This document shows positions 6,219 through 61,946 of a stretch of 64,000 bases of DNA, piece after piece. Origin of the DNA: an uncultured Hormoscilla sp. (GTDB taxonomy: Bacteria > Cyanobacteriota > Cyanobacteriia > Cyanobacteriales > Desertifilaceae). The stretch lies in contig OZ001293.3 of assembly GCA_963921275.4 (NCBI GenBank), forward strand, positions 5,120,001-5,184,000, written 5' to 3'. Position numbers and translations under genes: made by a program. The notes beneath the pieces are model-generated. The model did no database searches and had not been told where the DNA came from. It was given only the letters and a program-made list of their open reading frames with translations. Within the stretch, counting starts at the first letter, position 1. Every line of letters begins with the position of its first letter.

Positions 6219-7053
<835 letters not shown>

Positions 7054-7090: not shown

Positions 7091-8524
7091 ATGGCAAGCC
7101 CGACAGTAGAAAACTTGGTAATCATTGGTTCTGGTCCTGCTGGCTACACGGCGGCGATCTACGCTGGCCGTGCTAACCTCAAACCAGCGGTCTTTGAAGG
7201 CTACCAAATGGGTGGTATTCCTGGCGGTCAACTGATGACCACAACGGAAGTGGAGAATTTTCCTGGCTTCCCCGACGGCATTACTGGCCCGCAACTGATG
7301 GACAGAATGAAGGCTCAAGCAGTGTACTGGGGGGCCCAGCTATATACTGAAGATGTTATAGCTGTTGACTTGATCCAGCCACGTCACCGTGTCGGAAAAA
7401 TCGGAAGTAGTGCGAATAGCCCTCTCCCGAGACATCCAAGTCCCTTTACTGTCCGATCGTCCGATCGGACATTACACACCCACAGCATTATCATCGCCAC
7501 CGGAGCCACAGCAAAGCGGTTAGGACTGCCCTCTGAGGAGAAATTCTGGAATCAGGGCATCTCTGCATGTGCTATATGTGATGGTGCCAGTCCCATATTT
7601 AAGGGAGTAGAGTTGGTGGTCATTGGTGCTGGCGACACAGCAGCAGAAGAAGCAGTCTATCTAACCAAGTATAGCGCCCACGTTCATATACTAGTGCGGC
7701 GGGACCAGATGCGAGCCTCTAAGGCGCTGCAAGACAGAGTCTTGGATAACCCCAAAATCACGGTCCACTGGCATACCGAGGCCGTGGACGTATTCGGTGC
7801 CAATGGTAAGATGCAAGGGGTGAAGGTGAAAAATAATCAGACAGGCGAAATGAGGGAGTTACCTGCTGGCGGTCTGTTCTATGCTATTGGTCACACCCCC
7901 AATACTCAACTTTTCCAAGGTCAACTAGAACTGGATGAGGTGGGTTACATTGTGACTAAGCCCGGTTCGGTAGAAACTAGCGTGGAGGGGGTCTATGCTG
8001 TGGGTGACGTACAAGACCGCGAGTTTCGTCAGGCCGTGACGGCTGCTGGTAGCGGCTGTATGGGGGCAATGTTAGCAGAAAAATGGCTTTCTGCCAATGG
8101 GTTGGCCCAGGAGTACCATCAAGAAGAAAGCAATAAAGCGCTGACTACAAACAATGTTCATAGTGAGGACTTGAGTTCTCAAAAATCTGATATCTTTGAC
8201 ATAGCAGCGACGCGACATCAGGGTGGTTATGCCTTGCGCAAGCTTTTCCATGAGAGCGATCGGCTGATCATGGTAAAATACTCTGCGCCTACCTGCGGCC
8301 CTTGTCACAGTCTCAAACCCATTTTAAGCAAGGTAGTAGACGAGTTCGATAACAAGATCCACTATGTAGAAATTGACATCGAACAAGATCCCGAGATTGC
8401 TGAGAATGCGAGTGTCACCGGTACTCCCACCGTACAGTTCTTCAGGGACAAGGAATTAATCCATCAATATCAAGGCGTCAAGCCAAAGAGTCATTACCGG
8501 GAAACGATCCAAAGCAATTTGTAA
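7091..8524 (+). CDS. trxB: NADPH-dependent thioredoxin reductase C (NTRC: TrxB fused to a thioredoxin domain), with a ~20-aa insertion
   Basis: GSGPAG FAD motif, CAIC active site, C-terminal CGPC thioredoxin domain. Confidence 0.95.
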
Positions 8525-21313: not shown

Positions 21314-23165
<1,852 letters not shown>

Positions 23166-23169
23166 TAAA

Positions 23170-24290
<1,121 letters not shown>

Positions 24291-30510: not shown

Positions 30511-32590
30511 CGGGACTTAGACAAAATCTAAGCCCACACATCGCGCCCGACTCGCGCAAGTGAGCAGCAAATACATCAACATTGTTACCTAGCCAACCCA
30601 CAAACCGCGCTTGAGACGGCTGTACGAAAGGATCTTGACGCTCCAACAAATGTTTTTAATGGTCCCGCCGCCTATTGTCGCGCTAGACCACCGGTTAACC
30701 AATGCCACAGAATAAAAGTATAAGCACAAAAAACGCTCGTTTTCATGACGCTCAATACTTTTTTTACCTCTAAGTTGGCATTCTCAAAAAAACAACCAGC
30801 CTTTTACCGTTCCGTAAAAAACTTCAACCCAATTACCTTGTGAATAGGTGGTAACTATCCATTCTGCCGTAGCTTTTTCTATGGGAGCATTGGTTATTAA
30901 ATAATCAATTTCCGTTGCCAAGTCAACAGTTTTGGCATTCATTACGATAGCTATTGTTCCTTGACTTGACATCTGTATCACTTGAAGTGATACAAAAAAT
31001 CTCTACTTTTATTGTTGCTACCCAAACTGGACGAGGTTTTGGTAAATCTAGCTGGACTGAAAGCTTCTTCTGGTAATATAGCTGTCAGTTAATCTAATCT
31101 CCGGAACTGATGAGAGGCCCTGTCTTTATTTCAACTTCTACCTTTCTCTTCTTAGGACATCCAATATAAATTAATCCTCTTTTTTCTAATTCTTTTAACA
31201 AAGGACCGTTATTACCATAACCTCCATCTAATCTATCAAGGTTACTTCCGGAGGATAACCTCGAGTTAAACACTTATCAATTAGTTCTAAGGTCGGGTTT
31301 TTTCTTGAATTCTGGATCTTATGCATCCTTCTTATAAAGAACTTGCCGGTAAATATTGGGCAAAATCTAACGGTAAACTTCTTACTCCGCGTTGTTACCA
31401 TTACAAGACCGTTATCAGTTTAGTCGGGGTCGAGCCTATTGTCGCCTCCCGACCCTCCCTTTCGGAACCGTGCATGCGACTGGAGCCGCACACGGCTACT
31501 GGGTAGATAGCCCTTGTCCTGGGTAGAATTACTCAGGATTACTCCCTTTGTTCCTTTCCTCATGCAATGGAACCCCTTATGGTTAGTCTCAGACTAGATA
31601 AATGCCTAACTCCGGAAGGTTCGCGGAGGCTAACAAGAAAACCCTTCATTATCCGCTCTTTACTCACGTTCACCTACTTAGCTAGGCTTCTCGACGTTTT
31701 TACCCGGTTAGGTCTTTAGTCCAACATTATCTACCTTGGATTTCTCCTGGTTTAGAACATTAAGGCTACTTTTTCCCAAAGATTCTATCTATCACCGACC
31801 CACGTCAGCATATCCATAGGAGTTACCCTAGGCATTGGCTTCTTGGGCCATCTCTCCCCTCGTGGCTTACGCCTTACATCTAACTTGTCCAAATGAGGAC
31901 AGCACACGAGAGGTTACTTCGTTCCCTGATATCATTTCATGCGAGGCTTTTAGGTCTCCCCTATACACCGGCAGTCATTTCGGGTACGATATCAGTGAGT
32001 AGCAAGCACTGATACGCGGACTACATGCACATTTTGTACCAAGCGTGTCAGCCTCTTTCGCTTGTTTGGAGTTACGATGCTTACAGGGATTCGCTTGTTC
32101 TAACCATGAACCTCTTTCCTAGCGGCGTCGGTCTCTAGGCTGAGACCTTATCCTTCATTTAAGTCCTCGCTCCACACCACGGCGATGTGGCTCCGCAGCA
32201 CCTTCGACCGGTGTCACCCCCGCACCTGGGGAAGGGGAATTTAACCCCCATGATGACCAGAGTTATCTGGCTAATGGAACCAGACCCGACTTTCACCATT
32301 ACTGGTTTATGCCGGAACGAATCGCACTGCCAACTTCTCCAATATATTGTCGTCCCGGTGCCTACCCCTTTAGTTATTGTTCCGCTTTTTCCATGACCTG
32401 TATCGTCCACTATTAAGCTAAATATATCCCTAGGTTTTGTTTGACGACAGATTGACATTATTTCTAATCGTCTTTCATTCAAATAATCAGCATCCCAAGT
32501 CGGTTATAAAATGATGTAATTTATGCTCGTCAACACCCACAACATACGAGTGATATTTGGGTAACATTTTTTCCTTCACTAACTCCATAT
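30511..32590 (-). mobile_element. IS701 family element, highly degraded, hosting an intron and abutting an IS630
   Basis: CGGGACTT end; IVDDTGH.K.G, QYIGEVGKTDNG, YLITN; paralog at 49362-50830. Confidence 0.8.
31422..32327 (-). mobile_element. ORF-less group II intron, variant D (906 nt)
   Basis: GTGCGATTCG start, domains V and VI; removal restores GEVG-K-TDNG of IS701. Confidence 0.92.
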
Positions 32591-39774: not shown

Positions 39775-40109
39775 TGTAGCTAGAGCATCGGTCCAGTACA
39801 ACTTCTTTATGGCTGCGCCACGCTACGCGATGGGTAAAATCATGAGGGGGAGAGGGAGGACATGGGGGGGGAGGCGAGAAGATGTTGATTTTTCGTTGAT
39901 TCACAGATGTTTTAATTTGTCAAGTATTATTAATGGACCGACGCTCTAGGTGTTAATCAATGACCAGCATGCCGCAGGCGCTCCCGATGTCACTTGAGAC
40001 AGGTGATTTAATATGGTATCACCTGCGTCAAGTGACATCAGCGGGACATCTCCACCTGATGCAAAAACACTGGTAACCGATCGCCGATCACTAATCACTG
40101 ACACTAGCG

Positions 40110-43329: not shown

Positions 43330-45345
43330 GTTATTTAACCTTTCAATATGATTAGTTTTTCCACATGATTAGTTTTTCCACTTTCTTTGACTACGGCTTT
43401 GTGACGTTTACTAGGGATTACTGTTTTGTATGCTTCCTGTGGATCTTGACAGGGGTGATAATATATTAAATCACCCCTGTCAAGATCCACAGCCCAAAAT
43501 CTGTGTAACAAACTGCGTCTATAAACAGGAGGCAAAGATTTCCATAATTCTCCTGCCGATTCACGACTGCTTCGATGTCTCCGGAGAGCTGGATGTCTCC
43601 TGACAGGGCGAGCGGTCTCTCGGGAGCGCTAATCGCACTAGACATCTCCAAAAACTAAACCATTGTCAGCTATGGGTTTCAAGCTCAGCCTCACTTTCTC
43701 ACATATGTTACTCAAACAGCAGCATCGGGGTTTGATAGATTTCCTGTTAATAACGCGCTCCAAAAATGATATTGATTAATCTCAATTTTTTCAGTCACCA
43801 GATTCTAATACTTCTAAAATTAATGCACCAATGCGCAATCTAACTAACCCACAAATTGTCTAAATTACCGACTCGTATTTATCTATATTTAAGCGAAATC
43901 GATCGCTGGCAACTCGAAAATTTTCCACTAATCTTATGACGTGTTCAACGAAAACTCTCAGAGAAGAAAAATATTGATTTTCTTCTTTTTGTTTGGCAGT
44001 TAATTCCTGTTTTTTCTGCTTTTTATGATGTGTTTTGTTGTTCTCCAATATAGGCTTTATCTCCTGCAAATTTTTGCTCTGGATGAAAAAAATATTGATG
44101 ATCGCGCCAAATATTTATGTCGCTTTTTGGACCTCTTTCTCCAGAAATTATATCGACAATATCTGCACACGCTATCGCTACTAGGTAACACATTGATTTT
44201 TTCTCCTATGATATTTCTTCTTGCCTGAGTAAAAATTTTTCTGTCCTTCATAGTCTTTAGATCTTGGTATCCCTTGCTCTGCGCTATCTACAATCAATTC
44301 ATATTCCCTTAAAATTTTTGATAAAACTTCTTCGTTTTCTCCATTAATTTTCACCTGTTCAAGCAAGCTTGACCGCAAAGAGTCTCGAAATATTTTTTGC
44401 CAATAATTAAAAACATCATTTGCTTTAGATTCACTGACTTCAAACATCAAACCTAATATTTGAAATGTTACTCCTTGACGGAGATAAATCAAGGTTAAAA
44501 CTATTTAATCTTCCACCGATAATTTAGGCTTAGCACCTCCACCAGCACCTATCAATCTAGTTTTCTGCTTTTCAACTTTTTCTTGATAATCTGCATCTAA
44601 CTTTTTGGCTAAGCTTATAAGTTGTATTAGGTTTTCATAACTGATACCGACAAGCCGCTTTACTTCTTGATGATTTTTTTGCTGTCCAAGTATAACTCAT
44701 GGCTTTCAGTCCCAAAATTAAAGTTGTCAAATCTTATTATAGCATAAATTTCTATTTTGGAGAGGTCTACTACCCGGGAAACACCTCGCGCTAATCGCAC
44801 TACCCAGGAGACATCGTATTCGCACTACTCCGGAGACATTGATCCCCAACATAAATTCCAACGATTTCTCAGTTTTTCGTATCGATCGCTAACCTTATCC
44901 ATTGTTGATTCTCCTTGTTTTTTACGAAAGATCACATTTCGTCACATTCAATTGTTAATTTCCTCTTCGGCTTGCCTGAAACCTTTATTTCACGGGGGGT
45001 TTCGGCATATTTCTTATTGACATATTTTCGATCGCGCAGCGTAGCGCAGCCATAACCGGGCCTGGAAACTCCTGTTATTCTGGCAATACCTACCAAAGGA
45101 ATTTTTTCGAGTAAGAGAATATCTATATTATTTTTCGTTTCTTCTGGTATCTGCTTTTTGGTAGGGTTTTCAACAAATTGCTGCCACATTCAAAACACTT
45201 ATATTTTTGCTTCTTGTTGTGAATACTGCCATTTTTAAAAATTCGCTTACTTTTACAGTTAGGGCAATCTGGTCGCCAACATAAATCTGATGGTGCGTTC
45301 ATAACTTTATAAATTGTTTTTCCCAATAACAATATAGCATTTTGA
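43330..45345 (-). mobile_element. IS1 family element, degraded, containing hairpin elements and an IS5-family insertion
   Basis: CPNCKS...KNG...QKYKC, ECDEM, VCYTDF, KESGKTNHVE fragments. Confidence 0.82.
43640..44768 (-). mobile_element. IS5 family (ISL2-like) element, degraded
   Basis: IR AGACATCTCCAAAA/TTTTGGAGAGGTCT, ACT duplication; YLRQGVTF, IVDSAEQ, YSGKKK, RVFVEHVI. Confidence 0.8.
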
Positions 45346-45878
45346 AAATCACTTATTATAAGAATATTTTATGGTTTCAATAGATAAGCTGCCGCGCATT
45401 TAAATTGCATAGGTCGAAAAGCTGAGATCCTTATTTCATAAGGGTTTCCGAATTTTGAATGAGAAAGAAAGAATTTTGAATGGCTTATTGCTTATGCATG
45501 GTAAAATTGTTATATTATCCCTTTGAAAAAGGCTAATAAATAGAGGGATGTAATGTTGTATCACTACATATTTATCACTACCAGCACATTGTCTATCCTT
45601 TTGCTAATGGTCTTGCTACTCATCGTCTTAAGAGTATATTTGCTTATTGCATTAGTGGGATGCTCTCATTGGCAACGGATGCGATCGCGGCTTAGAAGTA
45701 GTCCAGGGCAAAAAAAACCGAGGGCGACCTAGATTGTCGGTCTATTAATAAAACGCATTTTAACAACTCAAAGATAGACTATAATCGATCTGATATCCTC
45801 TGGTCCCTCTCTAGGCGCTGAGCGCCTGGGAAGCCGTAAAGTGTGTCGTCACGTAGAACCGATCCCAGCTTAACCCTC

Positions 45879-47756
45879 ATGAGTGATATAGTATTAGAAG
45901 TACGCAATCTGCGAGTCCAATTCCAAACTGACGAAAAACTGATTAAAGCAGTTGACGATATCTCCCTGAAAGTAGCACGAGGACAAACCTTGGGAATTGT
46001 GGGAGAATCAGGATCGGGCAAATCCGTTACCTCCCTAGCAGTGATGGATCTGGTGCCTAGGCCGGAGGGTACGATCGCCGAGGGCGAAATTTGGTTTCGC
46101 GAGACAGGGGACGCCGAACCGGTCAACCTTCGGCAACTTTCACCCCAACAAATGCAGCAACTTCGGGGTGGCAAGATGGGGATGATCTTCCAGGAACCGA
46201 TGAGTTCCATCAATCCAGTTTATAGCATCGGCTTCCAACTGACCGAAGCAATTATACAGCATCAAAATGTTTCCTCCCCAGAGGCCAGACGCCGGGCGAT
46301 CGGGCTTTTGCAAGAAGTGAAACTCCTGCCATCAGACGAAGCATTGAAGGAACAACTGCTAGCAGAATGGCCCCAGCAGAGGGAAGAACCAAGGGACAAA
46401 GAACTCCAGCGTCTAGTAAATAGCCAAAAACAGGAGATCCTCAAACGCTATCCCCACCAACTCTCCGGGGGGCAAATTCAGCGCGTGATGATCGCCATGG
46501 CAATTTCAAGCGATCCGGTGCTATTGATTGCCGACGAACCCACCACAGCCCTGGATGTTACAGTCCAAGCTACCATTCTCGACCTGTTGCGGCAACTAAC
46601 GCGACAGGGCATATCGATGATTTTCATTAGTCACGATCTGTGCGTGATTGGCGAAATTGCCGATACCGTAGCAGTCATGTATCAGGGTAAAATTGTCGAG
46701 GTCGGGTCAGTCTTGGACATCTTCTCCAACCCGCAGCATCCTTACACCAAAGGTTTGCTCGCCTGCCGTCCCCAACCAACAGTACGCCTGGAATATCTGC
46801 CCACCATCTGTGAGTTTATGGAAGTGGTGACTACTGCTACGGGAATCCAGGAGATGCCAGAGAAAGCTGACACGGCCGCTATCAAGGAAGTGAGTCCAAC
46901 TCAGCTAGAAGAACGCTTAACAGCACTCCAGCAGAAAGCGGCGCTTTTATCTGTACAAAACCTAAAAGTTGGCTTTCCAGTCAAGGGCATGTTTAGCCAA
47001 ACCAATCGTTATTTTATGGCCGTGAATAATGTCTCCTTTGAAGTCTATCCCGGGGAAACCCTGGGATTGGTAGGAGAATCGGGCTGTGGTAAAACTACAT
47101 TGGCACGCAGTTTGCTGCAATTGGTGCCACCTCTGAGTGGCAAGCTGCTATTTGCAGGTGAAGATATCACTCATCTTAACAAAAGGAGCCTGCGACAGTT
47201 GCGGCGGGAAATGCAAATGGTGTTTCAAGACCCTTTTAGTTCCCTGGATCCGCGCATGTCCATTGGCACAACTATCATGGAACCCCTGGAAATTCATAGC
47301 CGGGGTAATGCTAAAGAACGACACACGCGCTGTGCCTATCTGTTAGAAAGGGTAGGACTCTCACCTGACTGGATGAGTCGCAGGCCCCACGAATTTTCCG
47401 GCGGACAGCGCCAACGGGTATGTATTGCCCGTGCTTTGGCACTCAATCCTCAGTTTATTATCTGTGATGAGTCGGTTTCAGCTTTAGATGTCTCGGTACA
47501 GGCCCAAGTTTTGAACCTCCTCAAGGAATTACAGTCCGAGTTTGAACTGACTTATATCTTTATTTCTCACGACTTGAGTGTGGTTAAGTTTATGAGCGAT
47601 CGGATCGCGGTGATGAACAAAGGTAAAATTGTCGAAATTGCCAGCGCGGAGAATATTTACAACCAACCACAACAGGAGTACACTCGCCAACTCATTGCTG
47701 CTATTCCTACCGCCAGCATCGAACGCATTCAAAAGCGGGTTCTGGCGATCGCCTGA
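45879..47756 (+). CDS. Fused double-ATPase subunit of a peptide/nickel ABC transporter
   Basis: Two Walker A motifs (GESGSGKS, GESGCGKT) and two signature motifs. Confidence 0.93.
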   Translation: MSDIVLEVRNLRVQFQTDEKLIKAVDDISLKVARGQTLGIVGESGSGKSVTSLAVMDLVPRPEGTIAEGEIWFRETGDAEPVNLRQLSPQQMQQLRGGKMGMIFQEPMSSINPVYSIGFQLTEAIIQHQNVSSPEARRRAIGLLQEVKLLPSDEALKEQLLAEWPQQREEPRDKELQRLVNSQKQEILKRYPHQLSGGQIQRVMIAMAISSDPVLLIADEPTTALDVTVQATILDLLRQLTRQGISMIFISHDLCVIGEIADTVAVMYQGKIVEVGSVLDIFSNPQHPYTKGLLACRPQPTVRLEYLPTICEFMEVVTTATGIQEMPEKADTAAIKEVSPTQLEERLTALQQKAALLSVQNLKVGFPVKGMFSQTNRYFMAVNNVSFEVYPGETLGLVGESGCGKTTLARSLLQLVPPLSGKLLFAGEDITHLNKRSLRQLRREMQMVFQDPFSSLDPRMSIGTTIMEPLEIHSRGNAKERHTRCAYLLERVGLSPDWMSRRPHEFSGGQRQRVCIARALALNPQFIICDESVSALDVSVQAQVLNLLKELQSEFELTYIFISHDLSVVKFMSDRIAVMNKGKIVEIASAENIYNQPQQEYTRQLIAAIPTASIERIQKRVLAIA

Positions 47757-48065
47757 GCGATCGTAGGGCGGGTCGCCTGCCCACCTGCCCGGGGACCGTA
47801 GGGCGGGCGGATCGCCTGCCCGCCCGGGTAATTGCTGCTCATCGCCAGTATGAATGCACTATATCTGACTAGACTTAAGCTGACGCCGCTGCCAACCGTT
47901 ACCATACGTAATCAATATTTATTTTTGATAAAAAATATCCAAATTTAAACAGTATTGATTTTAATAAAAGCTATACATGACTAGACACAAGGAGAACAAA
48001 GTCTTTAGACAAAGTAAAAATTATAACTTTTTGTAAAAAACAGAGAAACTTTCCGGAATTGGGTC

Positions 48066-49051
48066 TTGGAGCATCGGATGGAAAAGGCGGGCTACAGCTT
48101 TACTGGCAGCTGGACTTGGGGCGAGAACATTGCATGGAACGGTACAACGGGAACACCAGATGTGACTCAGTCGGTTGCCACCCAACACGAGAATCTGTTT
48201 GTCGATCTCAACATCCCTGGTAGAGGTCATCGGATCAATCTGATGAACGAGAACTTCCGAGAGATTGGCCTTGGTACAGTAACTGGCTTATTTACTAGCA
48301 ACGGCACTGACTTTAATGCTGTGATGACCACCCAGGACTTTGCCAAGTCTGGATCGGGGTCGTTTTTGACTGGTGTTGCCTACGATGACCAGGACAACGA
48401 TGAAGGACTTGGTGGAGTAACAGTGCAAGCGGTGCGTCAGTCCGACGGTCAAACCTTCACCACTAACACGATGGATGCTGGTGGGTATCAGATTCAGTTA
48501 GAGTCTGGCAATTACACCGTGACTTTCTCTGGCGGCGGACTCGACGAGACTATCCGCCAGACGATCGCGATCGGCGACTATAATGTCAAGCTTGATGCTA
48601 TCCTGGATGATGACTCCGATGGTAACTCCGACGGGAACGGACCACTCCCACTCCCATTCCGGGAACCCGAGGCAATCACGATCTGACTGGCACAGCTGGC
48701 AACGATAGCATTATTGGTGGTACAGGTAATGACACTCTCTCTGGTGGCGAAGGTAATGACTTTCTCACTGGTGGTGAGGGTCGAGATCTTCCCCTTGGTG
48801 GGGGTGGTCGAGATACCTTCGTGCTGGAAATTGATACAGCAAGCACCAGATCAGGGTCAACCGATCGAATCTCGGACTTCCAGCCCGGGACGGATCGCAT
48901 AGGACTAACAACAACGGGAGGATCAATCTCCTTGAGCTTGATTGTGAGCGGCAGTCAGATTTCCATCAAGGATGTTAGCTCAGATAAACTCTTGGCCACC
49001 GTTGCAAATGTCACCCCCGTTCAGCTGATTAGTAGTCTTGTCCTACTGTAG
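48066..49051 (+). pseudogene. CAP/SCP domain plus RTX repeat secreted protein, 5'-truncated and frameshifted
   Basis: WGENIAW, GHRINLMN..FREIG; GG.GND repeats in a different frame. Confidence 0.75.
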
Positions 49052-49765
49052 ATTCCAAGTTTAGATATCGCTTCATCCCGTTTGGTGTTCTCCTTTCCAG
49101 TCTGAGACTGGAAAGGATTTTCTTATCGATAATCACTCACTAAGCAATTCCAAATTAAAAATTAAAAATTATTGCATTGGGAAACCCATTGAGAACTTGG
49201 CTCTCAGCTTTTGCCCTTATGCGATTTAATAGCGCGACAGCTTATAGCGTCGGTCGATAAACCGGATTTCTTTTTGGAAAAATACTGATATTTCGTTGAG
49301 TTAAGGTAAATAGAAAAAATCGTTTAGGATGAAAGGGGCGTCACGGTGGAAGGTCCCATAGCGGGACTTAAACAAAATCTAAGCCCACACATCGCGCCCG
49401 ACTCGCGCAAGTGAACGGCAAATACATCAACATTGTTACCTAGCCAACGCACAAACCGCGCTTGAGACGGCTGTACGAAAAGCTAAGAACGCGCCCAACT
49501 TATGTTTTTAATGGTCGATTAGCCCATTGTCGTGCTAGACCACCGGTTAACCAATGCCAGAGAATAAAAGTATACGTACAAAATACCAAGATCCAATGAC
49601 GTTCAATGCTTTTTTTCCCTCGAATTTGGGATTCTCAAAAAACCAACCAACCTTTGATTGTTCGGTAAAAAACTTCAATCCAATTGCGTTGTCAATAGGT
49701 AGTAACTATCCATTGTGCTGTTGCTTTTCCAGCGGGATCATTAGTGATTAAATAATCAATTTCCG

Positions 49766-49854
49766 CTGTGTCCCCCGGTGCTGCGTCTCCTGGGAGCGCT
49801 ACTCGTACTACCCAGGAGACGCAGCGCGCTACTCGCACTACCCGGGGGACACAG
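49766..49854. repeat. Self-nested ~42-45-nt hairpin mini-elements (family 1)
   Basis: Absent from the IS701 paralog near 30910; inner and outer stems each enclose a GCGCTACTCGYACTA loop. Confidence 0.85.
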
Positions 49855-50386
49855 ATCGCCGATTCAAGGTTTTTGGCATTCATGACGATAGCCACTGTAC
49901 GTTGACCTGACGGAAATTTCTACTTTTATTGTTGCCACCCAAACTGTCCGAGTTTTTTGTAATTCGAGATTAATAGAACGATTCTTCTGGTAATATTGCT
50001 GCCAGTTCATCTAATCTCCGGAACTTTTTTTTGACCCGCTTCTATTTTTCCCTCTACATTTCGATTTTTCGCCGACAATATAAATTAACCATCTTTTTTC
50101 TAGTTCTGTTAAAAAAGGACCATTATTTCCATAACCTCCATCAAAAACACGTTACTCCCGGACGATACCCTCTACTTAAACATTTATCAATTAGTTATCA
50201 AGCTAATTCTGGTTTTTTCTTGAATTCTGGAGCTTATGCATCCTTTCTCTAAAGAATCAGCGTGTACACGCCTTCGGCTATTGAGCTACATCTAATGGTA
50301 AACTTCTTAATCCAACGCATGTGATGAGTTGTTACCATAACAATCCCGTTATCAACTTGGCCAATTTACCCAATAGATTGTCGCCC

Positions 50387-50442
50387 CGGTGTCACTTGAC
50401 AGGCATGAGAAGATAGTATCTCATGCCTGTCAAGTGACACCG
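50387..50442. repeat. 56-nt hairpin element (family 2), perfect 24-bp stem
   Basis: CGGTGTCACTTGACAGGCATGAGA / TCTCATGCCTGTCAAGTGACACCG; relatives at 39986-40040 and 43441-43488. Confidence 0.85.
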
Positions 50443-51052
50443 CCAATTCCTTCAGTTAATGTTCCACTTCTTCCATGACCCGTGTCGTAAACTATTAAAT
50501 TAAAATCCTTATTAGATGGCTTGGTTTGACCACAATAATTCATTATCTCTAATCGCCTTTCATTTACATAATCAGCATCCCAAGGAGAGTCAGTTATAAA
50601 GTGATGCAATTTATGATCTTGAACCCCGACAGTATTTCTAGCTATTTGAGAAAGATTTTTGCGCTCGATTTCTCCTAATAGTCCCGTAAAATAATGACGG
50701 AACTCTCTTTCTTGGGCTTTATGGATAAATAAATCGTCTTTCGCGACGGCACCATCTGTAAAAACAAGGTGGCATGGCCTGAGCAGTTGTTTCTTTCATT
50801 TTTTTGTCCATTAAGTAAGAGTCCAACAACAGGTAGCAAATAAAATATTACTATCAGTAGTTTACCAGAGAAACGAGAGCCAACAAACTCCATACATTTG
50901 TATGATATCATAAAACCGTGCGCGTTGACGTATAATGCCCATTATACATGGATTTGAGCTGCTTTAGTCAGAAATTTTTGTTCCAAAGGTGGCAATCTGA
51001 ACTTAAAAGTGCCAACCTCGACCACGTAAAACTCACGGCATTGTATTTCTGA

Positions 51053-51914
<862 letters not shown>

Positions 51915-52166
51915 TAGCCGTCATCTCCGAGTCGTGGTCGGGCGAATTGAACCGCCCTAAACTGTCAATTAATCTAGGGGTCGGAACGAAGAGAAACGTT
52001 GTCGGGGTCTGTGGACAGGTCGAAACCACAGTAGGCTGGACGAGCAGCGGAAATCTCAGCAGCGGGTAGGACTTTTGTGTCTTCTGGGAGCGCTAGTCGC
52101 ACAAAAGAGAAGACACAGGAGCGTAACTGCTCCGAGGTAATCAGAACATTCTTGACAGAGTAGAGT

Positions 52167-53584
52167 ATGGTTAGGCGCGTGAGGAAAACTCATAGTGAAT
52201 CTTGGAAGAATTTGCCCTGGAAGAAATTCCGGCGCAATCTTTTTCGCCTGCAATGTCGAGTGTGGAAAGCTATTAGAGCGGGAGACAAGGCCCGAGGGAA
52301 GATCCTGCAAAAGCTAATTCTGAAGTCCCGGAGTGCAAGATACATAGCCATCCGTCAGGTAACGCAGCTCAACGCCGGGAAGAAAACGGCGGGGGTAGAT
52401 GGCAAAACATGCCTCACTTTCCCAGAAAGACAAGAGCTAGAGAAACTGCTAAAAGAACAAGCCAAAACTTGGTCACATAGCCGTTTACGGTCCCTCCCAA
52501 TTCCCAAAAAGGACGGGACGACCCAAATGCTCAAAATCCCAACGATTAAAGATAGGGCATGGCAATGTCTTGTCAAATATGTCATCGAACCTGCCCATGA
52601 AGCACTTTTCTACGCTAGAAGCTACGGGTTCAGACCCGGACGCTCAACGCACGACTGCCAGAAAAACCTATATCTATGTCTGAGGTCATTCGCCCACGGA
52701 CTGGATAAAAGAGTTCTGGAATTGGATATCGAGAAGTGTTTTGATCGTATAGACCATAACTTCCTGATGAAACACACTATAGCCCCTCAATGCGTGAAGC
52801 TAGGGCTATGGAAATGTCTCAAGGCAGGAGTTAATCCGGAGTTCCCCTCGCAGGGAACTCCACAGGGAGGCGTGGTAAGTCCGGTACTGGCGAACATTGT
52901 CTTAGATGGCATCGAAAACATCCACCTCAAGCCAGAAGATGATGCTGATGTTATCCGGCAACAGGTCAAGGAATTCTTAGCGCTAAGAGGGTTGAATATA
53001 AAAGCACTTCATACGAGGCTCGTGGCCGCGACAGATGGGTTTTATTTTCTCGGCTGGCATTTCAAAGTGCAACAGAACTGGAAGTTCAGATGCGTCCCTT
53101 CAGAGGACAATTATGAGGCTTTCCGCCAAAAGGTCAAGCACATTGTCAACAACTCTAATTATGGTGATCTCACCAAAGCGCAAAAGCTATCTCGCCTAGT
53201 AAGAGGATGGAGGAACTACCACCGCTACTGTAAGTTAAGTGGCGCCAGGTTCTCACTGTACTTCATTGCACACAGGGCGCAGATGCCTTAATCAAAAAGG
53301 CATTCCCAAGCGTACCCTATCACGAACACAAGCACGTCAAGGTCATAGGTGATAAATCGCCTTTCGACGGGGACATAACTTACTGGTGTCAAAGAAACTC
53401 CAAATATTACGAAGGTCTCACGGCAACAGCGCTAAAGAGACAGGACTATACATGTGGACACTGCGGAATGAAACTACTAGATGGAGAGAAGGTACAGCTC
53501 CATCACATCGATGGAAACCACGACAATTGGAAGCTGACAAACTTGATGGCAGTACATAAGTCGTGTCATGATTATATCCACATG
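52167..53584 (+). pseudogene. ltrA: Group II intron RT/maturase/HNH lacking the YADD segment, frameshifted near 53285; last codons at 55393-55410
   Basis: GKKTAGVDG, SYGFRPGRS, GTPQGG present; ENIH directly followed by LKPEDD; HNH CGHCG...LHHIDGNH in the next frame. Confidence 0.88.
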
Positions 53585-55392
53585 GTGCGATTCGTTCAGG
53601 CGTAAACTGGCGACGGTGAAGTCTGGTCTGGTTTCATTTGCCGGATAACTCTGGTTATCATGGGGGTTAAATTCCCTCTCCCCAGGTGTGGGGGGTCGAG
53701 GGTACTACCGGTCCTTAGTGCTGCGGGGTCACATCGCCGTGGTGCTCCGCTAGGACTTAAATGTAGGATAGCTGGCAGCCTAACCCAGTGACGCCGCTAG
53801 GAAAGATGCTCATGGTTAGAACAAGCGAACCTGTTAAAGCCTCGTTACATAGAACCAGCGGAATAAGGCTTATACGCTGGCCCAAAAGGGAAAATGGTAG
53901 TTAGTGTTGGTAGTCATCTATTGCCAGCATCGCACCCAAAGAACTCCCGGGGTATAGCAGGGGCCTACAAGCATCGAGAAATGATACCAGGGAACGAAGT
54001 AACCTCACGTGAGCTGTCCCCATTTGGACCAGTTAGATGTAAAGCGCAAGCCGCGAAGAGGAAGGATGTTCTAAGAAGCCAACGCCTGGGGTAATGCCTG
54101 GGATATGCAGACGTAGGACGGATATGGTAAGAAGCCTTTGGTGAAAGTAGCCCTAACACGTCGCAAAACTTAGGAGAAATCCAAAAGTATGAATATGGAC
54201 TAGGGCGTGTCATCAATTAAGCCATATTACAGCTGCCGCGAGGTAGATGGCACCCAAGAAATTGCGAGCCGTTTTATCGTAGCGTGTCGCCAGAGCCCTG
54301 TATTGCTTGAGTTTTTGGAATAGATTTTCAATTAGATGCCGCCACTTGTACATTTCTTCATCGTATTCTCTGTGTTCTGTGCGGTTACTTTTTGGAGGAA
54401 TGACAGCCATCCAATCCGCCTCTTTCAGGCGCTCGAGCACACGTTGTTCCGCATCATAGGCTTTATCTGCAAGCAGCGCGCCAATCTCACCGATTTTATC
54501 CAATAGCACGTCAGCGCCTTTCCCGTCGTGGGCTTGGCCAGGGGTAAGATGAAATCCTGTGGGATTGCCTTGGGCAATCGCAAGTGGCATGAATCTTTGT
54601 CGATAGTCCCCCTTTACTACGGCCTATGGCTTGGGTTTCGCACGTATCTGAGGGTGTTTTTTTTTGCACCCGCACGCTCGTTGATGGGCACGCAGGATGG
54701 TGGCATCAATCGCGGCGTATTCGTTATCGGCGTCTGAGGCCAAGACATCGAATACCTGCTTCCAAACTCCCTTTTCAGACCAACGGGATGGCGGGTATGA
54801 ACAACCCGAAAATCCCCAAAACACTCCGGTAAATCCCGCCAGGGAATGCCAGCACGATATCGATATAACACGGCAGAACACGAATAATCTATTGTTCTTG
54901 GCTGTAGCGCCTGGGTCACCCTCTTTACCAGGTAAAAGGTGTTCGATCCGTTCCCACTGGTCGTCTCGCAAGCCATAGCGTCTCATATCATGCCCTCTTG
55001 ATTGTTATTGCTGGATAAGGACTCCATACCGTATCCATCTACTTCTGTCAAGCAATTTGATTGATGACACACCCTAGAGTCTCAGCCGGGTAAAGTTCAG
55101 AGCCCCGATAAATTGCCAGAATGGGGAAATGTTAGAGAAGAGCGGCTAGAATGGTTTGCTGAACTACCCTCCGCGATCGCGCAGCGTGCGCGCAGCGCAT
55201 ACCTTCCGGAGCTGAAATCATTAACGGTCCAATAGGATTGACCATAAGGGGTAAAATTACAGAGGGTAAGGGGAAACGGGGTGACCTAATTATTGATGAT
55301 GATATGCCTAAGGACAAGCCCCAGCGGTGAAAGTCGCAAGTCCGGTTCCGCTCTTGGAGGGTTGGGGAGTGATTCCCAGCTCGACCCCGACC
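53585..55392 (+). mobile_element. ORF-less group II intron, variant E, interrupted by IS5, domain V degenerate
   Basis: GTGCGATTCG start, ...CTCGACCCCGACC end; removal gives HDYIHM|SKSID*. Confidence 0.88.
54203..55074 (-). mobile_element. IS5 family (IS427-like) element, frameshifted
   Basis: IR GGGYGTGTCATCAAT with TA duplication; LRDDQW, IDAT, LADKAYD, RHLIENLF..LK.YR..ATRYDK. Confidence 0.9.
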
Positions 55393-55583
55393 AGCAAGTC
55401 AATTGACTAGGTTATCGGGAGCCGGATGCGGGGAAACTCGCACGTCCGAATCTAAGAGGGAGGTGCGGGGTATAACAGCCCCATCGACCCTACCAAGGCG
55501 ATCGCCTGGGAAAACTCCGCTCCCAGATGCTGGTACTGGTCCGTGACTTGCTCAAAAGCTTTCAAGTCCTGAAAATCCAGCTG

Positions 55584-55717
55584 CGGTGTCCCCCGGGTAG
55601 TGCGAATACGATGTTTCCCCTTTTGTGCGATTAGCGCTCTGTATCTCCTGGGTAGTGCGATTAGCGCTCCCAGGAGATACCTCGTCCCAGGAAACATTGA
55701 GCTCTCGGGGGACACCG
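55584..55717. repeat. Multiply nested hairpin mini-elements (family 1)
   Basis: CGGTGTCCCCC...GGGGGACACCG outer stem with repeated GTGCGATTAGCGCT loop motifs. Confidence 0.8.
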
Positions 55718-56081
55718 AAGGAGAGAGGGGATGGTTTGTGCTTGGGTTAGCTTGGGGTTATGGCCCTCACGGGCCTGTTCAGAAGATAACCAGTGATAAA
55801 ATCCAGTTTCTGACGACAATGACATAACTACTCCAGATGCACCAATTCAGCTCTAATTGCAGCATCGGGAAAATTTCCCCTTAAGATTAGGGTGGTTGTG
55901 TCAGTTCCTCGACTGTAGCGACATCTTCGGCAACTGAAGCCCCTTCAGTCCGGGAAACGCCGTGACAATTTTCTAACTGTCCTCGCCTGTCCGTGGTGGG
56001 CTTCCTGCCGGACCGATCCCGGTTCGGATACAATAGCTTGGTAGCTATCAAGCTCACAGTTCGCTGCTCACACCAAGGGTC

Positions 56082-57182
56082 ATAAATAAGTTGCACAGTG
56101 GTTTTACTGTATTTCTCAGTTTGCTCGTAGAGGCCATACCCTTCCTGCTGCTAGGGGTGTTGCTTTCAGGCTTACTGCTATTTTTTGTCGATGAGCGCAA
56201 ACTGGCCGCACTCATCCCCAAAAACCCCCTACTGGGTGCCTTAGCAGGAAGTTTGATTGGTTTTTTGTTCCCCGTCTGCGAGTGCGGCAATGTACCGGTA
56301 GCTCGTCGCCTGCTGATGCAGGGGTTGCCTGCGTCGGTGGCCGTGGGTTTTTTACTGGCGGCCCCGACAATTAATCCGATCGTAATTTGGTCCACCTGGA
56401 CTGCGTTCCGAGACCAGCCCGAAATTGTCGTCCTGCGAGTCCTATTTTCTCTGGCGAGCGCGACCATCGTGGCCTGGGTCTTCAGTTTTCAAACTGACTT
56501 GCGAGATTTACTGCAACCGAGTATGGTGCGTTCTCTGCCTGAACGCTACAGTGCGGTGTCTCCTGGGATCTTTCGGTGTCCCCCGGGAGCGCTAAAAGCA
56601 CAAAAGGGGGAACACCGAACTCGCACTGCCCAGGAGACACCGAAAGCTACTTTTATATCTCCGGCAACAGCACGGTCGCCCTTGTTACAGTCCGGCACAT
56701 TTATCCTCGATCGACCTGGTAAACCTCTGGGCGTCAATCAGTTACAAATGGAAGCTGGAGTGAAGAGCAAACCTTTACCAGAACGCTGGCGTTTGTTCCT
56801 GGACAATACTATAGAGGAAACCCGGGAGTTGGGAGGCATGTTGGTGATCGGAAGTGCGATCGCCGCCGGCCTTCAAGTCGCCGTGCCCCGGGAGGTCATA
56901 CTCTCGATCGGCAATAGTCCCGTCACCTCGATTCTGGCTATGATGATCTTAGCAGCCCTGGTATCCATTTGCTCTACTGTAGATGCCTTTTTTGCCCTAT
57001 CTTTCGCCTCCACCTTTACCAGTGGTTCTCTGCTCGCTTTCCTCGTCTTTGGCCCGATGATTGACCTGAAAGGCATTGGTCTGATGTTGTCAATCTTCAA
57101 GCAAAGAGCTATATTTTACTTATTTGCCTTGGCGGCGCAGTTAACCTTTGTGTTCGCGTTGATTTATCAAATGCTATATTAG
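56082..57182 (+). CDS. Permease (DUF318/UPF0718 family) with an in-frame hairpin insertion; start uncertain (ATA 56082 or TTG 56091)
   Basis: LVEAIPFLL, FPVCECG, SICSTVDAF, GPMIDLK motifs. Confidence 0.9.
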   Translation: MNKLHSGFTVFLSLLVEAIPFLLLGVLLSGLLLFFVDERKLAALIPKNPLLGALAGSLIGFLFPVCECGNVPVARRLLMQGLPASVAVGFLLAAPTINPIVIWSTWTAFRDQPEIVVLRVLFSLASATIVAWVFSFQTDLRDLLQPSMVRSLPERYSAVSPGIFRCPPGALKAQKGEHRTRTAQETPKATFISPATARSPLLQSGTFILDRPGKPLGVNQLQMEAGVKSKPLPERWRLFLDNTIEETRELGGMLVIGSAIAAGLQVAVPREVILSIGNSPVTSILAMMILAALVSICSTVDAFFALSFASTFTSGSLLAFLVFGPMIDLKGIGLMLSIFKQRAIFYLFALAAQLTFVFALIYQMLY

Positions 57183-59745: not shown

Positions 59746-60204
59746 ATAAGAATTTCAGCTCTCAGGACTACTGTACAACTTCCCCTCGGCTGACAGAGAT
59801 AGGCTTTCCTTGGGATTAAACTAAGCCAACGGGTCACCCCGCCGACTCGTCTTCAGAACCGGACGTGAGACTTTCACCTCATCCGGCTCCTCAGTTTCGC
59901 CATCCTTGTCATGGATACGGCCTTTGTCACCATCTCTGGCAGACTTTACATCATGGCAATAATCATGCAGCAACTGTAGGTTGGTATACCAGTCTTTACC
60001 TCCTTTAGAAACTGGTAGAATATGGTCAACCTCCCATTTGTCGCCATCTTTGAATTTCAGTCCGCAGTGCACACACTTACCATCCTGCTCTTTTAGCAGT
60101 CTGATAACTCTAGCGCTCACATCCGGGCTTTTTCTCAGTCTTTTGCTCCAATAAACCAGATTACCGTCAAACGGGCTAGCTGTCCCCTTAACCTTTACGT
60201 GTCT

Positions 60205-61946
60205 GTGCGATTCGTTCTAGCCTAACGTGGTCAAACACGGAACGCTAGCCCGGTTTCATTAGCCAGGAACTCTGACCGCATGGGGGTTAAATTCCCCTCC
60301 CCCCAGGTACGGGGGTGACACCGGTCCTCGGTGCTACGAAGCGACATCATCGTGGTGCTAAGCGAGGACTCAAATGTAGGATAACTGGCAGCCTAAGCCG
60401 GTGACGCCGCTAGGAAAGATATCCAAGGTTAGAGCAGGCAAACATGTGCAAGCCTCGTTATAAGGAACCAGCGAAATAAGGCTATATGCGCTGGCCTAAA
60501 AAGGAAATGGTAGCTAGTATTAGTTTTAGACTCTGGCTAATATAGTACTCAAATAGCTCCCGGGGTATAGTGTGGACCTAAAGGTATCGCGAAATGTTGT
60601 TAGGGAACGAAGTAACCTCTCGTGTGCTGTCCATCAGGACAAGTTAGATGTTAAGCGCAAGCCACGGGGGGAGGGATGGCCCAAGAAGCGAATGCCCGGG
60701 GTAATTCCTGGGATAACATCTACAGTAATGTAGATGATGCTGGGTAGCCAGCGCTGACGTGGGTCGGTGATACTAGGAAGCTGCTGGAATGAGTAATCCT
60801 AAAAAGCCACGGAACTAATCCGAAACGCAAGTGGAGGATAAGGTATGGATAACTGGTAAAACTGACTTGAAAATGGTGATACTAACGGTTATCAGAACAA
60901 CCACTCGCTAAACCAGGAAAGGGAAGAAAAGACAGGCGGCAAGGGCTAACGGAAGTAATTCCTATTAAGTCTGTGCGATTCGTTCTAGCCTAACGTGGTC
61001 AAACACGGAACGCTAGCCCGGTTTCATTAGCCGGGAACTCTGACCGCATGGGGGTTAAATTCCCCTCCCCCCAGGTACGGGGGTGACACCGGTCCTCGGT
61101 GCTACGAAGCGACATCATCGTGGTGCTAAGCGAGGACTCAAATGTAGGATAACTGGCAGCCTAAGCCGGTGACGCCGCTAGGAAAGATATCCAAGGTTAG
61201 AGCAGGCAAACATGTGCAAGCCTCGTTATAAGGAACCAGCGAAATAAGGCTATATGCGCTGGCCTAAAAAGGAAATGGTAGCTAGTATTAGTTTTAGACT
61301 CTGGCTAATATAGTACTCAAATAGCTCCCGGGGTATAGTGTGGACCTAAAGGTATCGCGAAATGTTGTTAGGGAACGAAGTAACCTCTCGTGTGCTGTCC
61401 ATCAGGACAAGTTAGATGTTAAGCGCAAGCCACGGGGGGAGGGATGGCCCAAGAAGCGAATGCCCGGGGTAATTCCTGGGATAACATCTACAGTAATGTA
61501 GATGATGCTGGGTAGCCAGCGCTGACGTGGGTCGGTGATACTAGGAAGCTGCTGGAATGAGTAATCCTAAAAAGCCACGGAACTAATCCGAAACGCAAGT
61601 GGAGGATAAGGTATGGATAACTGGTAAAACTGACTTGAAAATGGTGATACTAACGGTTATCAGAACAACCACTCGCTAAACCAGGAAAGGGAAGAAAAGA
61701 CAGGCGGCAAGGGCTAACGGAAGTAATTCCTATTAAGTCTACCTATGAAAAGGGCCTAGTACCCAGTAGCCGGATGCGGTGAAAATCGCAAGTCCGGTTC
61801 CTCAAGGGAGGGTCGGGAAGCGATTCCCGGCTCGACCCCATCCACCTATGAAAAGGGCCTAGTACCCAGTAGCCGGATGCGGTGAAAATCGCAAGTCCGG
61901 TTCCTCAAGGGAGGGTCGGGAAGCGATTCCCGGCTCGACCCCATCC
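60205..61946 (+). mobile_element. ORF-less group II intron variant B, outer copy (768 nt + 103 nt)
   Basis: Span 1742 = 2 x 871. Confidence 0.95.
60973..61843 (+). mobile_element. ORF-less group II intron variant B, inner copy (871 nt)
   Basis: Inserted at TATTAAGTCT|ACCTATG of the outer copy. Confidence 0.95.

What the first reader, a model, noticed from the sequence alone, without database searches (positions are those of the whole stretch)
43574..56642. Tiny 42-45-nt hairpin mobile element that nests in itself (family 1)
Seen: consensus GTGTCYCCYGGG-AGCGCTAMTCGCACTA-CCCRGGRGACAC, with variable but self-complementary stems and a conserved loop. Copies: 52076-52117 (single, 42 nt), 49766-49854 (double), 55584-55717 (multiple), 56554-56642, and 43574-44840 (split by an IS in the loop, with ACT duplication). 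The 49766 copy is absent from the IS701 paralog, adds exactly 29 codons and splits a reconstructed HIP1 site (GC^GATCGC). Known: 21-27-nt short dispersed repeats, some targeting HIP1, exist in Nostoc; I do not recognise this larger class. The mobilising enzyme is unknown.
Basis: partly seen in the sequence, partly recalled or inferred. Interest (0 to 1): 0.75.

Follow-up and report, generated by a model that had tools for sequence, protein, structure and literature searches.

The report
45-base mobile DNA hairpin, self-nesting
This is a family of tiny DNA hairpins in Hormoscilla-type cyanobacteria that copy themselves into new places, adding exactly 15 codons even inside working genes and often landing inside one another; it resembles the very small mobile repeats known from Nostoc, and the enzyme that moves it is still unknown.

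Summary
The hairpins are real at all five stated loci: one single, two doubles and two triples, one triple split by an IS. A decayed sixth copy lies at 7391-7440.

**Anatomy.** A 14-bp stem of variable but compensated sequence closes a conserved 16-nt asymmetric loop.

**Distribution.** In a scan of 185,579 species genomes, 71 of the 80 loci that carry a record title come from Hormoscilla assemblies. The 9 others lack stems.

**Mobility.** It is shown by filled and empty sites.
- A permease carries 30 extra codons in the window and its closest relative only.
- A flavoprotein and RodZ each carry exactly 15 extra codons in some Hormoscilla lineages only.
- An IS701-like paralog in the window differs by 90 nt.

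Each event therefore adds 45 nt, with no target duplication.

**Self-nesting.** Six of the 11 units in the window sit in the 5' part of another unit's loop, all co-oriented with the host.

**Mechanism (inferred).** The stems are Watson-Crick with few G·T pairs, which favours a DNA hairpin recognised by a trans-acting enzyme. No such gene was found.

**Closest known.** The Nostocaceae SDR elements (Elhai 2008, not readable here) and the in-frame Rickettsia palindromic elements.

**Verdict.** A new member of a known kind, of moderate to high interest.

The parts
52075..52118 (+). Single unit. The right arm is partly decayed (…CACAAAAGAG… in place of …CACTACCCAG…). It lies about 50 nt upstream of a group II intron RT ORF (52167-53291).
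   Evidence: Sequence; covariance-model score 52.7 bits; DNA fold -9.7 kcal/mol, z = -3.9.
49766..49854 (+). Double nest of 89 nt; the inner 44-nt unit is at 49781-49824. It sits inside a decayed IS701-like transposase gene on the minus strand. With one adjoining base it makes 90 nt that are absent from the paralog at about 30914/30915.
   Evidence: 67.6 bits; fold -38.5 kcal/mol, z = -9.6. The same composite architecture is seen at L065/L072 and L019/L059, with compensated stem changes.
55584..55717 (-). Triple nest of 134 nt, with all three units in minus orientation. The innermost stem is at 55641-55680; the middle unit spans about 55609-55699. It lies 90 nt downstream of a group II intron D5/D6.
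   Evidence: 62.3 bits; z = -6.5.
56553..56642 (+). Double nest of 90 nt (30 codons), in frame inside the ArsP_1-type permease gene 56091-57182. The inner unit is at 56574-56617. It encodes AVSPGIFRCPPGALKAQKGEHRTRTAQETP.
   Evidence: The alignment shows the insert in the window protein and in P0004 only; the 5 Hormoscilla-type orthologs aligned (91-94% identity) and 5 outgroups lack it.
43573..43640 (+). Left part of a triple nest: three left arms and the innermost loop up to ...GCACT(A).
   Evidence: loop matched by the covariance model at 43625-43640.
43641..44768 (-). IS of about 1.13 kb inserted in the innermost loop. It is not part of the hairpin family. It has imperfect terminal inverted repeats and a 3-nt duplication (ACT), and its transposase is broken.
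   Evidence: Sequence; HTH_Tnp_4 (44181-44492, minus strand) and DDE_Tnp_4 (43860-44069, minus strand).
44769..44841 (+). Right part of the same triple nest: three right arms, each preceded by the 3' part of its loop (...TCGCACTA).
7391..7440 (-). Decayed relic copy. The left arm and loop are recognisable; the right arm is lost.
   Evidence: (25.6 bits, E about 7e-5); the fold is not better than shuffles (z = -1.9).

Best explanation
**What is shown.** This is a non-autonomous mobile DNA family of the Hormoscilla lineage.
- Each unit is a 44-nt hairpin: a 14-bp stem closed by C...G and a conserved 16-nt loop, A-GCGCTAMTCGCACTA. Within the loop, GCG/CGC can form a 3-bp mini-helix.
- Each event adds 45 nt (15 codons) without a target-site duplication. 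Copies therefore never shift a reading frame, and they persist inside housekeeping genes.
- New copies land in many kinds of sites. They land far more often than chance in the 5' part of the loop of an existing copy, in the same orientation, which builds double and triple nests.
- Whole nests can then move as one unit.

**What is inferred.** The element is recognised as a folded single DNA strand by an enzyme encoded elsewhere in the genome. That enzyme would read the asymmetric loop and need only an intact stem. It would cut at the foot of the stem and paste the 45-mer into single-stranded DNA, most easily into the loop of another copy that it already binds. A HUH/Y1-type (RAYT or IS200/IS605-like) enzyme is the best guess. 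Selection for a paired stem in the copies that still move would explain the variable but compensated arms.
For: **Mobility**
- A 30-codon insert sits in the permease of the window and of P0004 only.
- A 15-codon insert sits in the flavoprotein of L047 and is absent from the 4 closest Hormoscilla proteins, at 90-95% identity.
- A 15-codon insert sits in RodZ of L066, P0243 and P0244 and is absent from P0245-P0250.
- The IS701-like paralogs in the window differ by 90 nt.
- Nest lengths of 89, 89 and 134 nt equal 44 + 45n.
- No direct repeat of 3 nt or more flanks any of the four inserts; the only match is a 2-nt CG at L047 (read).

**Structure**
- 95.7% of 461 stem cells pair.
- 90 cells changed on both sides, against 21.9 in shuffles. 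10 of the 14 pairs covary.
- Three copies of one composite differ by 4 compensated pairs against 1 uncompensated stem change (read).

**DNA rather than RNA**
- Of 490 stem cells, 450 are Watson-Crick, 7 are G·T, 14 are A·C and 19 are other.
- Copies inside long ORFs lie in both orientations.

**Self-targeting**
- 6 of the 11 window units lie in another unit's loop, although loops make up about 0.3% of the window.
- All 6 are co-oriented with their host.
- Elsewhere, 9 of 10 adjacent loop pairs are co-oriented.

**Precise ends whatever the target** argue for structure-defined cutting.
Against: - No candidate enzyme was seen. There is no Y1_Tnp, RAYT or recombinase in 76 window ORFs or in 103 flanking ORFs. 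Whole genomes could not be scanned.
- The left flank carries no conserved target word of the kind IS200/IS605 elements leave.
- REP features are missing or misplaced.
- The insert boundaries are fixed only to within about 2 nt.
- Some nested units measure 43 or 47 nt (L020; the middle unit at 55609-55699).
- Only 1 family-type indel was found in 18 orthologous locus pairs at 54-100% identity. Recent activity in those lineages is therefore low.
- Orientation along the two longest contigs shows no clear replication-strand pattern (positions).
Confidence: 0.5

Rival explanations
1. **RNA-mediated spread.** The hairpin is transcribed and trimmed to a 45-nt RNA, then copied back into DNA by one of the many reverse transcriptases of this genome (group II intron RTs). 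As I recall, Elhai et al. proposed an RNA intermediate for the Nostoc SDR elements.
For: - The window holds 10 group II intron D5/D6 hits and 4 RT ORFs.
- Insertion leaves no target duplication.
- The stem shows compensated changes.
- The RNA-intermediate proposal for SDRs is recalled from the Elhai 2008 abstract, which I could not read here.
Against: - G·T pairs are rare and no commoner than A·C on the loop strand (7 against 14 of 490 cells). A selected RNA stem would tolerate many G·U pairs.
- Copies inside ORFs lie in both orientations relative to the gene (the permease copy is sense, the IS701 copy antisense).
- No Rfam family matches the hairpins.
- The hairpins are not consistently next to introns.
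Confidence: 0.2
2. **No dedicated enzyme.** Copies arise by replication or repair template switching at hairpins. Quasi-palindrome correction then keeps the arms complementary.
For: - The stems are Watson-Crick only and show near-automatic compensation.
- Nested copies share the orientation of their host.
- No enzyme gene was found.
Against: - The inserted block has the same precise 45-nt extent in unrelated genes that share no homology with it.
- A switch would have to start and end exactly at the foot of a donor hairpin.
- Inner and outer units of a nest have different stems, so the donor is distant.
- Right flanks do not resemble the loop once nested cases are set aside.
Confidence: 0.12
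3. **MITE of a DDE transposon.** The arms act as terminal inverted repeats, and the element is moved by an IS transposase, for example the IS that sits in the loop at 43641-44768.
For: - The element has inverted-repeat ends.
- The TIR of that IS matches the hairpin arm at 7 of 10 positions (by-eye count).
- That IS makes a 3-nt duplication, and 42 + 3 = 45.
Against: - No 3-nt direct repeat flanks the unit in any of the four filled sites (read).
- The arms vary while the loop is conserved, the reverse of a MITE.
- The element is far below usual MITE size.
Confidence: 0.05
4. **Not selfish.** The hairpin is a functional motif, such as a protein-binding or RNA-stability hairpin in the manner of REP. 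It would be kept by selection and spread by recombination.
For: - The loop is strongly conserved.
- One larger repeat carries the hairpin in 5 of 5 copies seen.
Against: - Copies sit in frame inside unrelated coding regions, in pseudogenes and in each other.
- Presence is lineage-specific at orthologous sites.
- Copies occur in either orientation.
Confidence: 0.08

Closest known systems
Small dispersed repeats SDR1-SDR8 of Nostocaceae (Elhai et al. 2008, Genome Res 18:1484). The paper is not held here, and its features are recalled from the abstract. One passage about it was read in PMC5861425.
   Same: Both are very small dispersed repeats that behave as mobile DNA. Both have hairpin families with compensatory stem changes. 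Some families insert into copies of themselves and build nests. In both cases the enzyme is unknown.
   Different: - Size: SDRs are 21-27 nt, against a 44-nt hairpin that adds 45 nt here.
- Lineage: this family is in Hormoscilla (Gomontiellales). [quoted passage not shown]
- HIP1 targeting, reported for SDR5, is not seen here.
- Sequence relatedness to SDR1-8 could not be tested.
There is also no hit in 72,556 plasmids.
Rickettsia palindromic elements (RPE). Passages were read in the review PMC10969869.
   Same: Both are palindromic repeats that insert in frame into unrelated protein-coding genes and are tolerated there as extra peptide segments.
   Different: RPEs are about 150 bp and belong to Rickettsia. 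They encode a conserved peptide. Self-nesting is not a known feature of them.
REP / REPIN elements with RAYT transposases. Passages were read in PMC3116915.
   Same: Both are short, non-autonomous palindromic repeats thought to act as single-stranded hairpins moved in trans. That paper lists a cyanobacterium (Nostoc punctiforme) among RAYT-containing genomes.
   Different: - In REPs the arms are conserved and the spacer is variable; here it is the reverse.
- REPs are extragenic, and the replicating unit is an inverted doublet.
- The GTAG/CTAC word lies outside the palindrome in REPs (recalled). Here CTAC lies inside the loop.
- No RAYT was found near any copy.
Integron attC sites (recalled knowledge)
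   Same: In both, structure is conserved while stem sequence varies. Both are recognised as a folded single strand with unpaired bases.
   Different: attC sites have conserved core sites at their ends and lie in cassette arrays beside an integrase. They are not dispersed 45-nt insertions.
Cyanobacterial MITEs such as Nezha (seen in the reference list of PMC10969869)
   Same: Both are non-autonomous repeats in cyanobacterial genomes.
   Different: MITEs have conserved terminal inverted repeats and target-site duplications, and as a rule exceed 100 bp. This family meets none of these.

Membership tests
SDR elements (Elhai 2008) | Length of 21-27 nt | tested here: not met
   The hairpin is 44 nt and the net insert is 45 nt. 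The conserved core (GGG + loop + CCC) is 22 nt, so a word-based survey might have reported only that core.
SDR elements (Elhai 2008) | Hairpin with compensatory stem mutations (SDR4/5/6) | tested here: met
   10 of 14 pairs covary. 90 cells changed on both sides, against 21.9 in shuffles.
SDR elements (Elhai 2008) | Insertion into copies of itself (SDR1, SDR4) | tested here: met
   The window holds four nests, and there are more in L011, L020, L024, L032, L046 and L071.
SDR elements (Elhai 2008) | Sequence identity to one of SDR1-8 | not testable with these tools
   The paper is not held. The loop string occurs in no paper of the library.
SDR elements (Elhai 2008) | Confined to Nostocaceae | tested here: not met
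REP / REPIN-RAYT | Conserved arms, with a GTAG-type word outside the palindrome | tested here: not met
   The arms vary and the loop is conserved. CTAC lies at the 3' end of the loop.
REP / REPIN-RAYT | Extragenic location | tested here: not met
   24 of 67 loci have an ORF of at least 150 codons reading through the unit. Hosts include SMC, ARC6, RodZ, Ycf66 and a flavoprotein.
REP / REPIN-RAYT | A RAYT (Y1 transposase) gene flanked by the repeats | tested here: inconclusive
   None was found in 76 window ORFs or 103 flanking ORFs. Whole genomes were not searchable.
MITE | Target-site duplication and conserved terminal inverted repeats | tested here: not met
   No direct repeat of 3 nt or more was found at the four filled sites; the only match is a 2-nt CG at L047. 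The arm sequence is variable.
Rickettsia palindromic elements | In-frame insertion into protein-coding genes | tested here: met
   Inserts are exactly 15 or 30 codons. This is a likeness in behaviour only; the size and the host lineage differ.

The most novel reading that the evidence does not exclude
The family may stand for an undescribed way of moving DNA. An enzyme would read only a 16-nt asymmetric loop on a folded single strand and excise a 45-nt hairpin at the foot of its stem. It would paste that hairpin without any duplication, preferring the loop of another copy ('loop homing'). One arm would be re-made from the other at each round, which would explain near-perfect Watson-Crick compensation at every stem position. 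The length, fixed at 15 codons, would be an adaptation that lets the element colonise the genes of an obligate symbiont.
Probability: 0.15. Interest if true: 0.85.

Novelty: new member of a known kind. Interest (0 to 1): 0.6.

Why it matters
- **An open mechanism.** Elements this small cannot encode anything. How they move has stayed open since the Nostoc SDRs were described.
- **A tractable case.** This family gains a sharply defined 45 nt. Its loop is conserved enough to serve as a probe. Several close genomes differ in filled and empty sites. A comparative search for the co-occurring enzyme, followed by a test with a 45-mer oligonucleotide, is therefore feasible.
- **Effect on proteins.** The element rewrites proteins of a sponge symbiont in 15-residue steps, as seen in the permease, RodZ and a flavoprotein, with long ORFs also reading through copies in SMC and ARC6. 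This affects gene annotation and protein evolution.
- **Practical use.** The copies could serve as lineage markers. A hairpin-specific DNA inserting enzyme, if found, could become a tool.

Tried and rejected
1. **HIP1 as target.** Rejected for the 49766 copy on the paralog alignment, and in general on the flank composition of 30 units. One copy (L033) does sit in a 7-of-8 HIP1-like word.
2. **Outer stem pairs as halves of a palindromic target** (CTG/CAG and the like). Rejected, because the paralog lacks them.
3. **Link to group II intron 5' ends** (shared GTGCGATT). The 5' exons of six intron copies differ and are not hairpin arms. I treat this as chance.
4. **Filled/empty test of the 52076 copy** against the intron at 63.3 kb. 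The two are too diverged to tell.
5. **Similarity of the right flank to the loop as a target signal.** The mean score is slightly above control (P about 0.02), but nested cases drive it. Not retained.
6. **Empty copies of the larger host repeat.** None was found among the held loci.
7. **Orthologous locus pairs.** 18 pairs were aligned. They gave only one family-type indel of 34 nt (L046 vs L068) plus other tiny hairpin indels.
8. **Replication-strand bias.** The strands of hits along the two longest contigs give no clear pattern.
9. **Rfam.** No family matches the hairpins.
10. **Elhai 2008.** It could not be opened by DOI, PMC id or PubMed id.
11. **Literature searches with too loose term settings.** Searches returned irrelevant lists.
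Full report

Yes. The sequence at all five stated places shows the hairpin.
- A single unit lies at 52075-52118.
- Doubles lie at 49766-49854 and 56553-56642.
- A triple in minus orientation lies at 55584-55717.
- A second triple lies at 43573-44841. A roughly 1.13-kb IS with a 3-nt ACT duplication interrupts its innermost loop. That IS carries broken HTH_Tnp_4 and DDE_Tnp_4 reading frames.

The loop motif with up to 3 mismatches occurs 11 times against 1.94 expected, and none of 100 shuffles reaches 11.

I built a covariance model from 33 units and ran it unfiltered over the whole window. It finds these loci, one decayed copy at 7391-7440 and nothing else of the family. As single-stranded DNA the units and nests fold far better than shuffles, with z from -3.9 to -9.6.

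**2. Anatomy**

- The stem is 14 bp, closed by C...G, with consensus CGRTGTCYCCYGGG.
- The loop is 16 nt and nearly invariant: A-GCGCTAMTCGCACTA. Inside it, GCG and CGC can pair around a 5-nt loop, so the loop is asymmetric.
- The stem varies at most positions, and the changes are compensated.
  - On 33 units, 95.7% of 461 cells pair.
  - 10 of 14 pairs show changes on both sides.
  - 90 cells carry such changes, against 21.9 in shuffles and 9-25 when the partner column is slid by 1-3.
  - These seeds were chosen for at least 12 of 14 pairs, so the percentage paired is biased. The covariation counts are not.
- In the unbiased set picked by the loop pattern alone, 47 of 75 Hormoscilla-type units have at least 11 of 14 pairs in simple register. 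None of the 9 hits in other phyla does; their best is 10. The units that fail are mostly outer members of nests or have rearranged left arms.

**3. Where the family lives**

- Of the 80 loci with titles, 71 come from four Hormoscilla assemblies.
- The other 9 come from unrelated phyla and have no stems, so they are chance hits.
- Hormoscilla belongs to the Gomontiellales.

The window itself shares no flanks with these loci. Its permease is 85-95% identical to Hormoscilla proteins, and it shares their group II introns. It therefore comes from that lineage.

Other checks:
- No Nostocales genome appears among the hits.
- No plasmid of 72,556 holds the unit.
- No paper in the library holds the loop string.
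- In the two Hormoscilla genome papers held, a term search found no passage on hairpin, palindromic or pseudogene features, and the few 'repeat' and 'transpos' hits concern other matters; passages only were read.

**4. It moves, and each move adds 45 nt**

There are four independent comparisons.

(a) *Permease, 56091-57182.*
- The window and its closest relative P0004 (95% identity) carry a 30-residue block that is exactly the double nest.
- The five Hormoscilla-type orthologs I aligned (91-94% identity) lack it, as do five outgroups.
- P0004 has a further 8 residues inside the block.

(b) *A HI0933-like flavoprotein in locus L047.*
- It carries exactly 15 extra residues, which are the translated unit.
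- The four closest Hormoscilla proteins (90-95% identity) and two of the three more distant proteins aligned (P0128, P0165) lack them.
- One outgroup, P0133, has an unrelated stretch in the same surface loop. The site is therefore a variable loop.

(c) *RodZ in locus L066.*
- L066, P0243 and P0244 carry 15 extra residues that are the translated unit.
- P0245-P0250 lack them.

(d) *IS701-like paralogs in the window.*
- They differ by 90 nt at the double nest.
- A DDE_5 domain supports the IS701 assignment.

The nests measure 89, 89 and 134 nt, which is 44 + 45n. I found no direct repeat of 3 nt or more at an offset of 45 or 90 nt; the only match is a 2-nt CG at L047. The protein alignments leave the exact boundaries open by about 2 nt. 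The reading 'one base plus the 44-nt hairpin' fits the permease and RodZ best.

Not every nested unit measures 45 nt: 43 nt in L020 and 47 nt in the middle unit at 55.6 kb. Small later indels do occur.

The flanks of 30 clean units show only a weak T-rich preference 5' of the hairpin and no HIP1.

**5. Genes tolerate it**

- In 24 of 67 loci an open frame of at least 150 codons reads through the unit. Random positions in the same loci give 179 of 335.
- Hosts include SMC, ARC6/Ftn2, RodZ, Ycf66, an AMIN-domain protein, a TPR protein and the flavoprotein.
- Both orientations relative to the gene occur.

**6. Self-nesting**

- Six of the 11 units in the window lie inside the loop of another unit, although loops make up about 0.3% of the window.
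- The insertion point is always in the 5' part of the host loop, 0-6 nt into it. The host's ...TCGCACTA part stays intact on the 3' side.
- All six are co-oriented with their host. Among clusters with two or more recognisable loop halves, 9 of 10 adjacent pairs are co-oriented, and L011 is the exception. L032 is a second exception, seen by eye.
- Inner and outer stems differ, so nests are not local duplications.
- A whole double nest also behaves as a unit. The architecture at 49766 recurs at two other loci (L065/L072 and L019/L059). Between these copies there are 4 compensated stem-pair changes and 1 uncompensated change.

**7. How it most likely works**

*Shown:*
- precise 45-nt gains without duplication;
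- a conserved asymmetric loop;
- a stem that needs only to pair;
- a preference for the loop of another copy, in the same orientation.

*Inferred:* a trans-acting enzyme recognises the folded single DNA strand, cuts at the foot of the stem and pastes the 45-mer into single-stranded DNA. I favour DNA over RNA for two reasons.
- Among 490 stem cells there are 450 Watson-Crick pairs, 7 G·T, 14 A·C and 19 others. A selected RNA helix would be rich in G·U pairs.
- There is no bias towards the sense strand of host genes.

A HUH/Y1-type enzyme is the best guess by analogy. No such gene was seen in 76 window ORFs or in 103 flanking ORFs, and there is no conserved left-flank word.

*Rivals:* an RNA intermediate with reverse transcription, template switching with quasi-palindrome correction, a DDE-type MITE, and a functional motif. 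Each is given with its evidence in its own section.

**8. Comparison with what is known**

- *Nearest kind: the SDR elements of Nostocaceae.* From my recollection of the Elhai 2008 abstract, these are 21-27 nt. Three families share a hairpin with compensatory changes, two nest in themselves, one sits in HIP1, and an RNA intermediate was suggested. I could not read that paper. A later paper states that no SDR-like repeat was found outside Nostocaceae (passage read). The present family shares the behaviour but differs in size, lineage and target.
- *Rickettsia palindromic elements.* They share in-frame life inside genes (passages read).
- *REP/REPIN, MITEs, attC.* The family fails defining features of REP/REPIN and of MITEs. 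It resembles attC only in that structure is conserved while sequence varies.

**9. Verdict**

The mobile, self-nesting reading is supported. The HIP1 and 29-codon details are not. This is a new member, in a new lineage and of about twice the size, of the known kind 'very small mobile hairpin repeats'. Its 15-codon step is unusually clean, and the mover is still unknown.

*What stayed unchecked:*
- whole-genome copy numbers;
- any co-occurring enzyme;
- DNA-level empty sites in orthologs;
- the SDR sequences themselves.

Noticed in passing
window 50387-50442, 43437-43492, about 39986-40039: A second hairpin family of 56 nt with a 23-24-bp stem. Its outermost stem (CGGTGTCAC, CTGTGGATC, CGATGTCAC) resembles the outer stem of family 1. 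The two families may share a mover or an origin.
   Followed up: partly
window 30971-30994: A 24-nt insert holding a perfect 10-bp hairpin sits in the IS701-like paralog. It is absent from the copy near 49912. This is a third tiny insert type, of 8 codons.
   Followed up: partly
proteins P0123 and P0004: Other Hormoscilla-type proteins carry extra blocks of 8 residues. P0123 has RSADGPKN in the flavoprotein. P0004 has 8 more residues inside the permease nest. This suggests further tiny in-frame insert families.
   Followed up: no
L011 vs L054; L046 vs L068: Orthologous loci differ by a 22-nt hairpin-forming indel (around TCGTTCCCAGGC...). They also differ by a 34-nt indel made of a family-1-type arm and loop.
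   Followed up: no
L009, L016, L040, L050, L067: A larger repeat (...ggcccgcctt / agggttcaaacccacggctaatagc...) carries a family-1 hairpin at the same spot in 5 of 5 copies seen. Four of them show a readable left arm, each with a different compensated stem; the fifth, L016, has its left arm truncated. No empty copy was found.
   Followed up: partly
window 6220-6297, 22785-22862, 23476-23553, 25277-25353, 51836-51913, 55417-55493, 59815-59891, 61765-61841, 61868-61944: Nine loci give group II intron domain V/VI hits, and two of them lie only about 100 nt apart. There are also four RT ORFs, several of them truncated. This stretch is an intron and IS graveyard. The six-copy repeat starting GTGCGATTCGTTCTAG is the intron 5' end.
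   Followed up: partly
window 18304-18357 (-): Rfam reports NsiR1, a nitrogen-stress sRNA of heterocyst formers, at 42.7 bits against a cut-off of 39. The lineage is not known for heterocysts, so the hit may be marginal.
   Followed up: no
window 43641-44768: The terminal repeat of the IS in the hairpin loop (AGAC[A/C]TCTCCAAAA) matches the hairpin arm at 7 of 10 positions (by-eye count). I judge this to be chance, because the hairpin units have no 3-nt duplication.
   Followed up: partly
L038, contig end: The hairpin's right arm runs straight into adapter-like sequence at the end of the contig. This is an assembly artefact in that public record.
   Followed up: no
window 52118-52145: Directly 3' of the single unit lies a small separate hairpin, GGAGC-GTAACT-GCTCC.
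   Followed up: no
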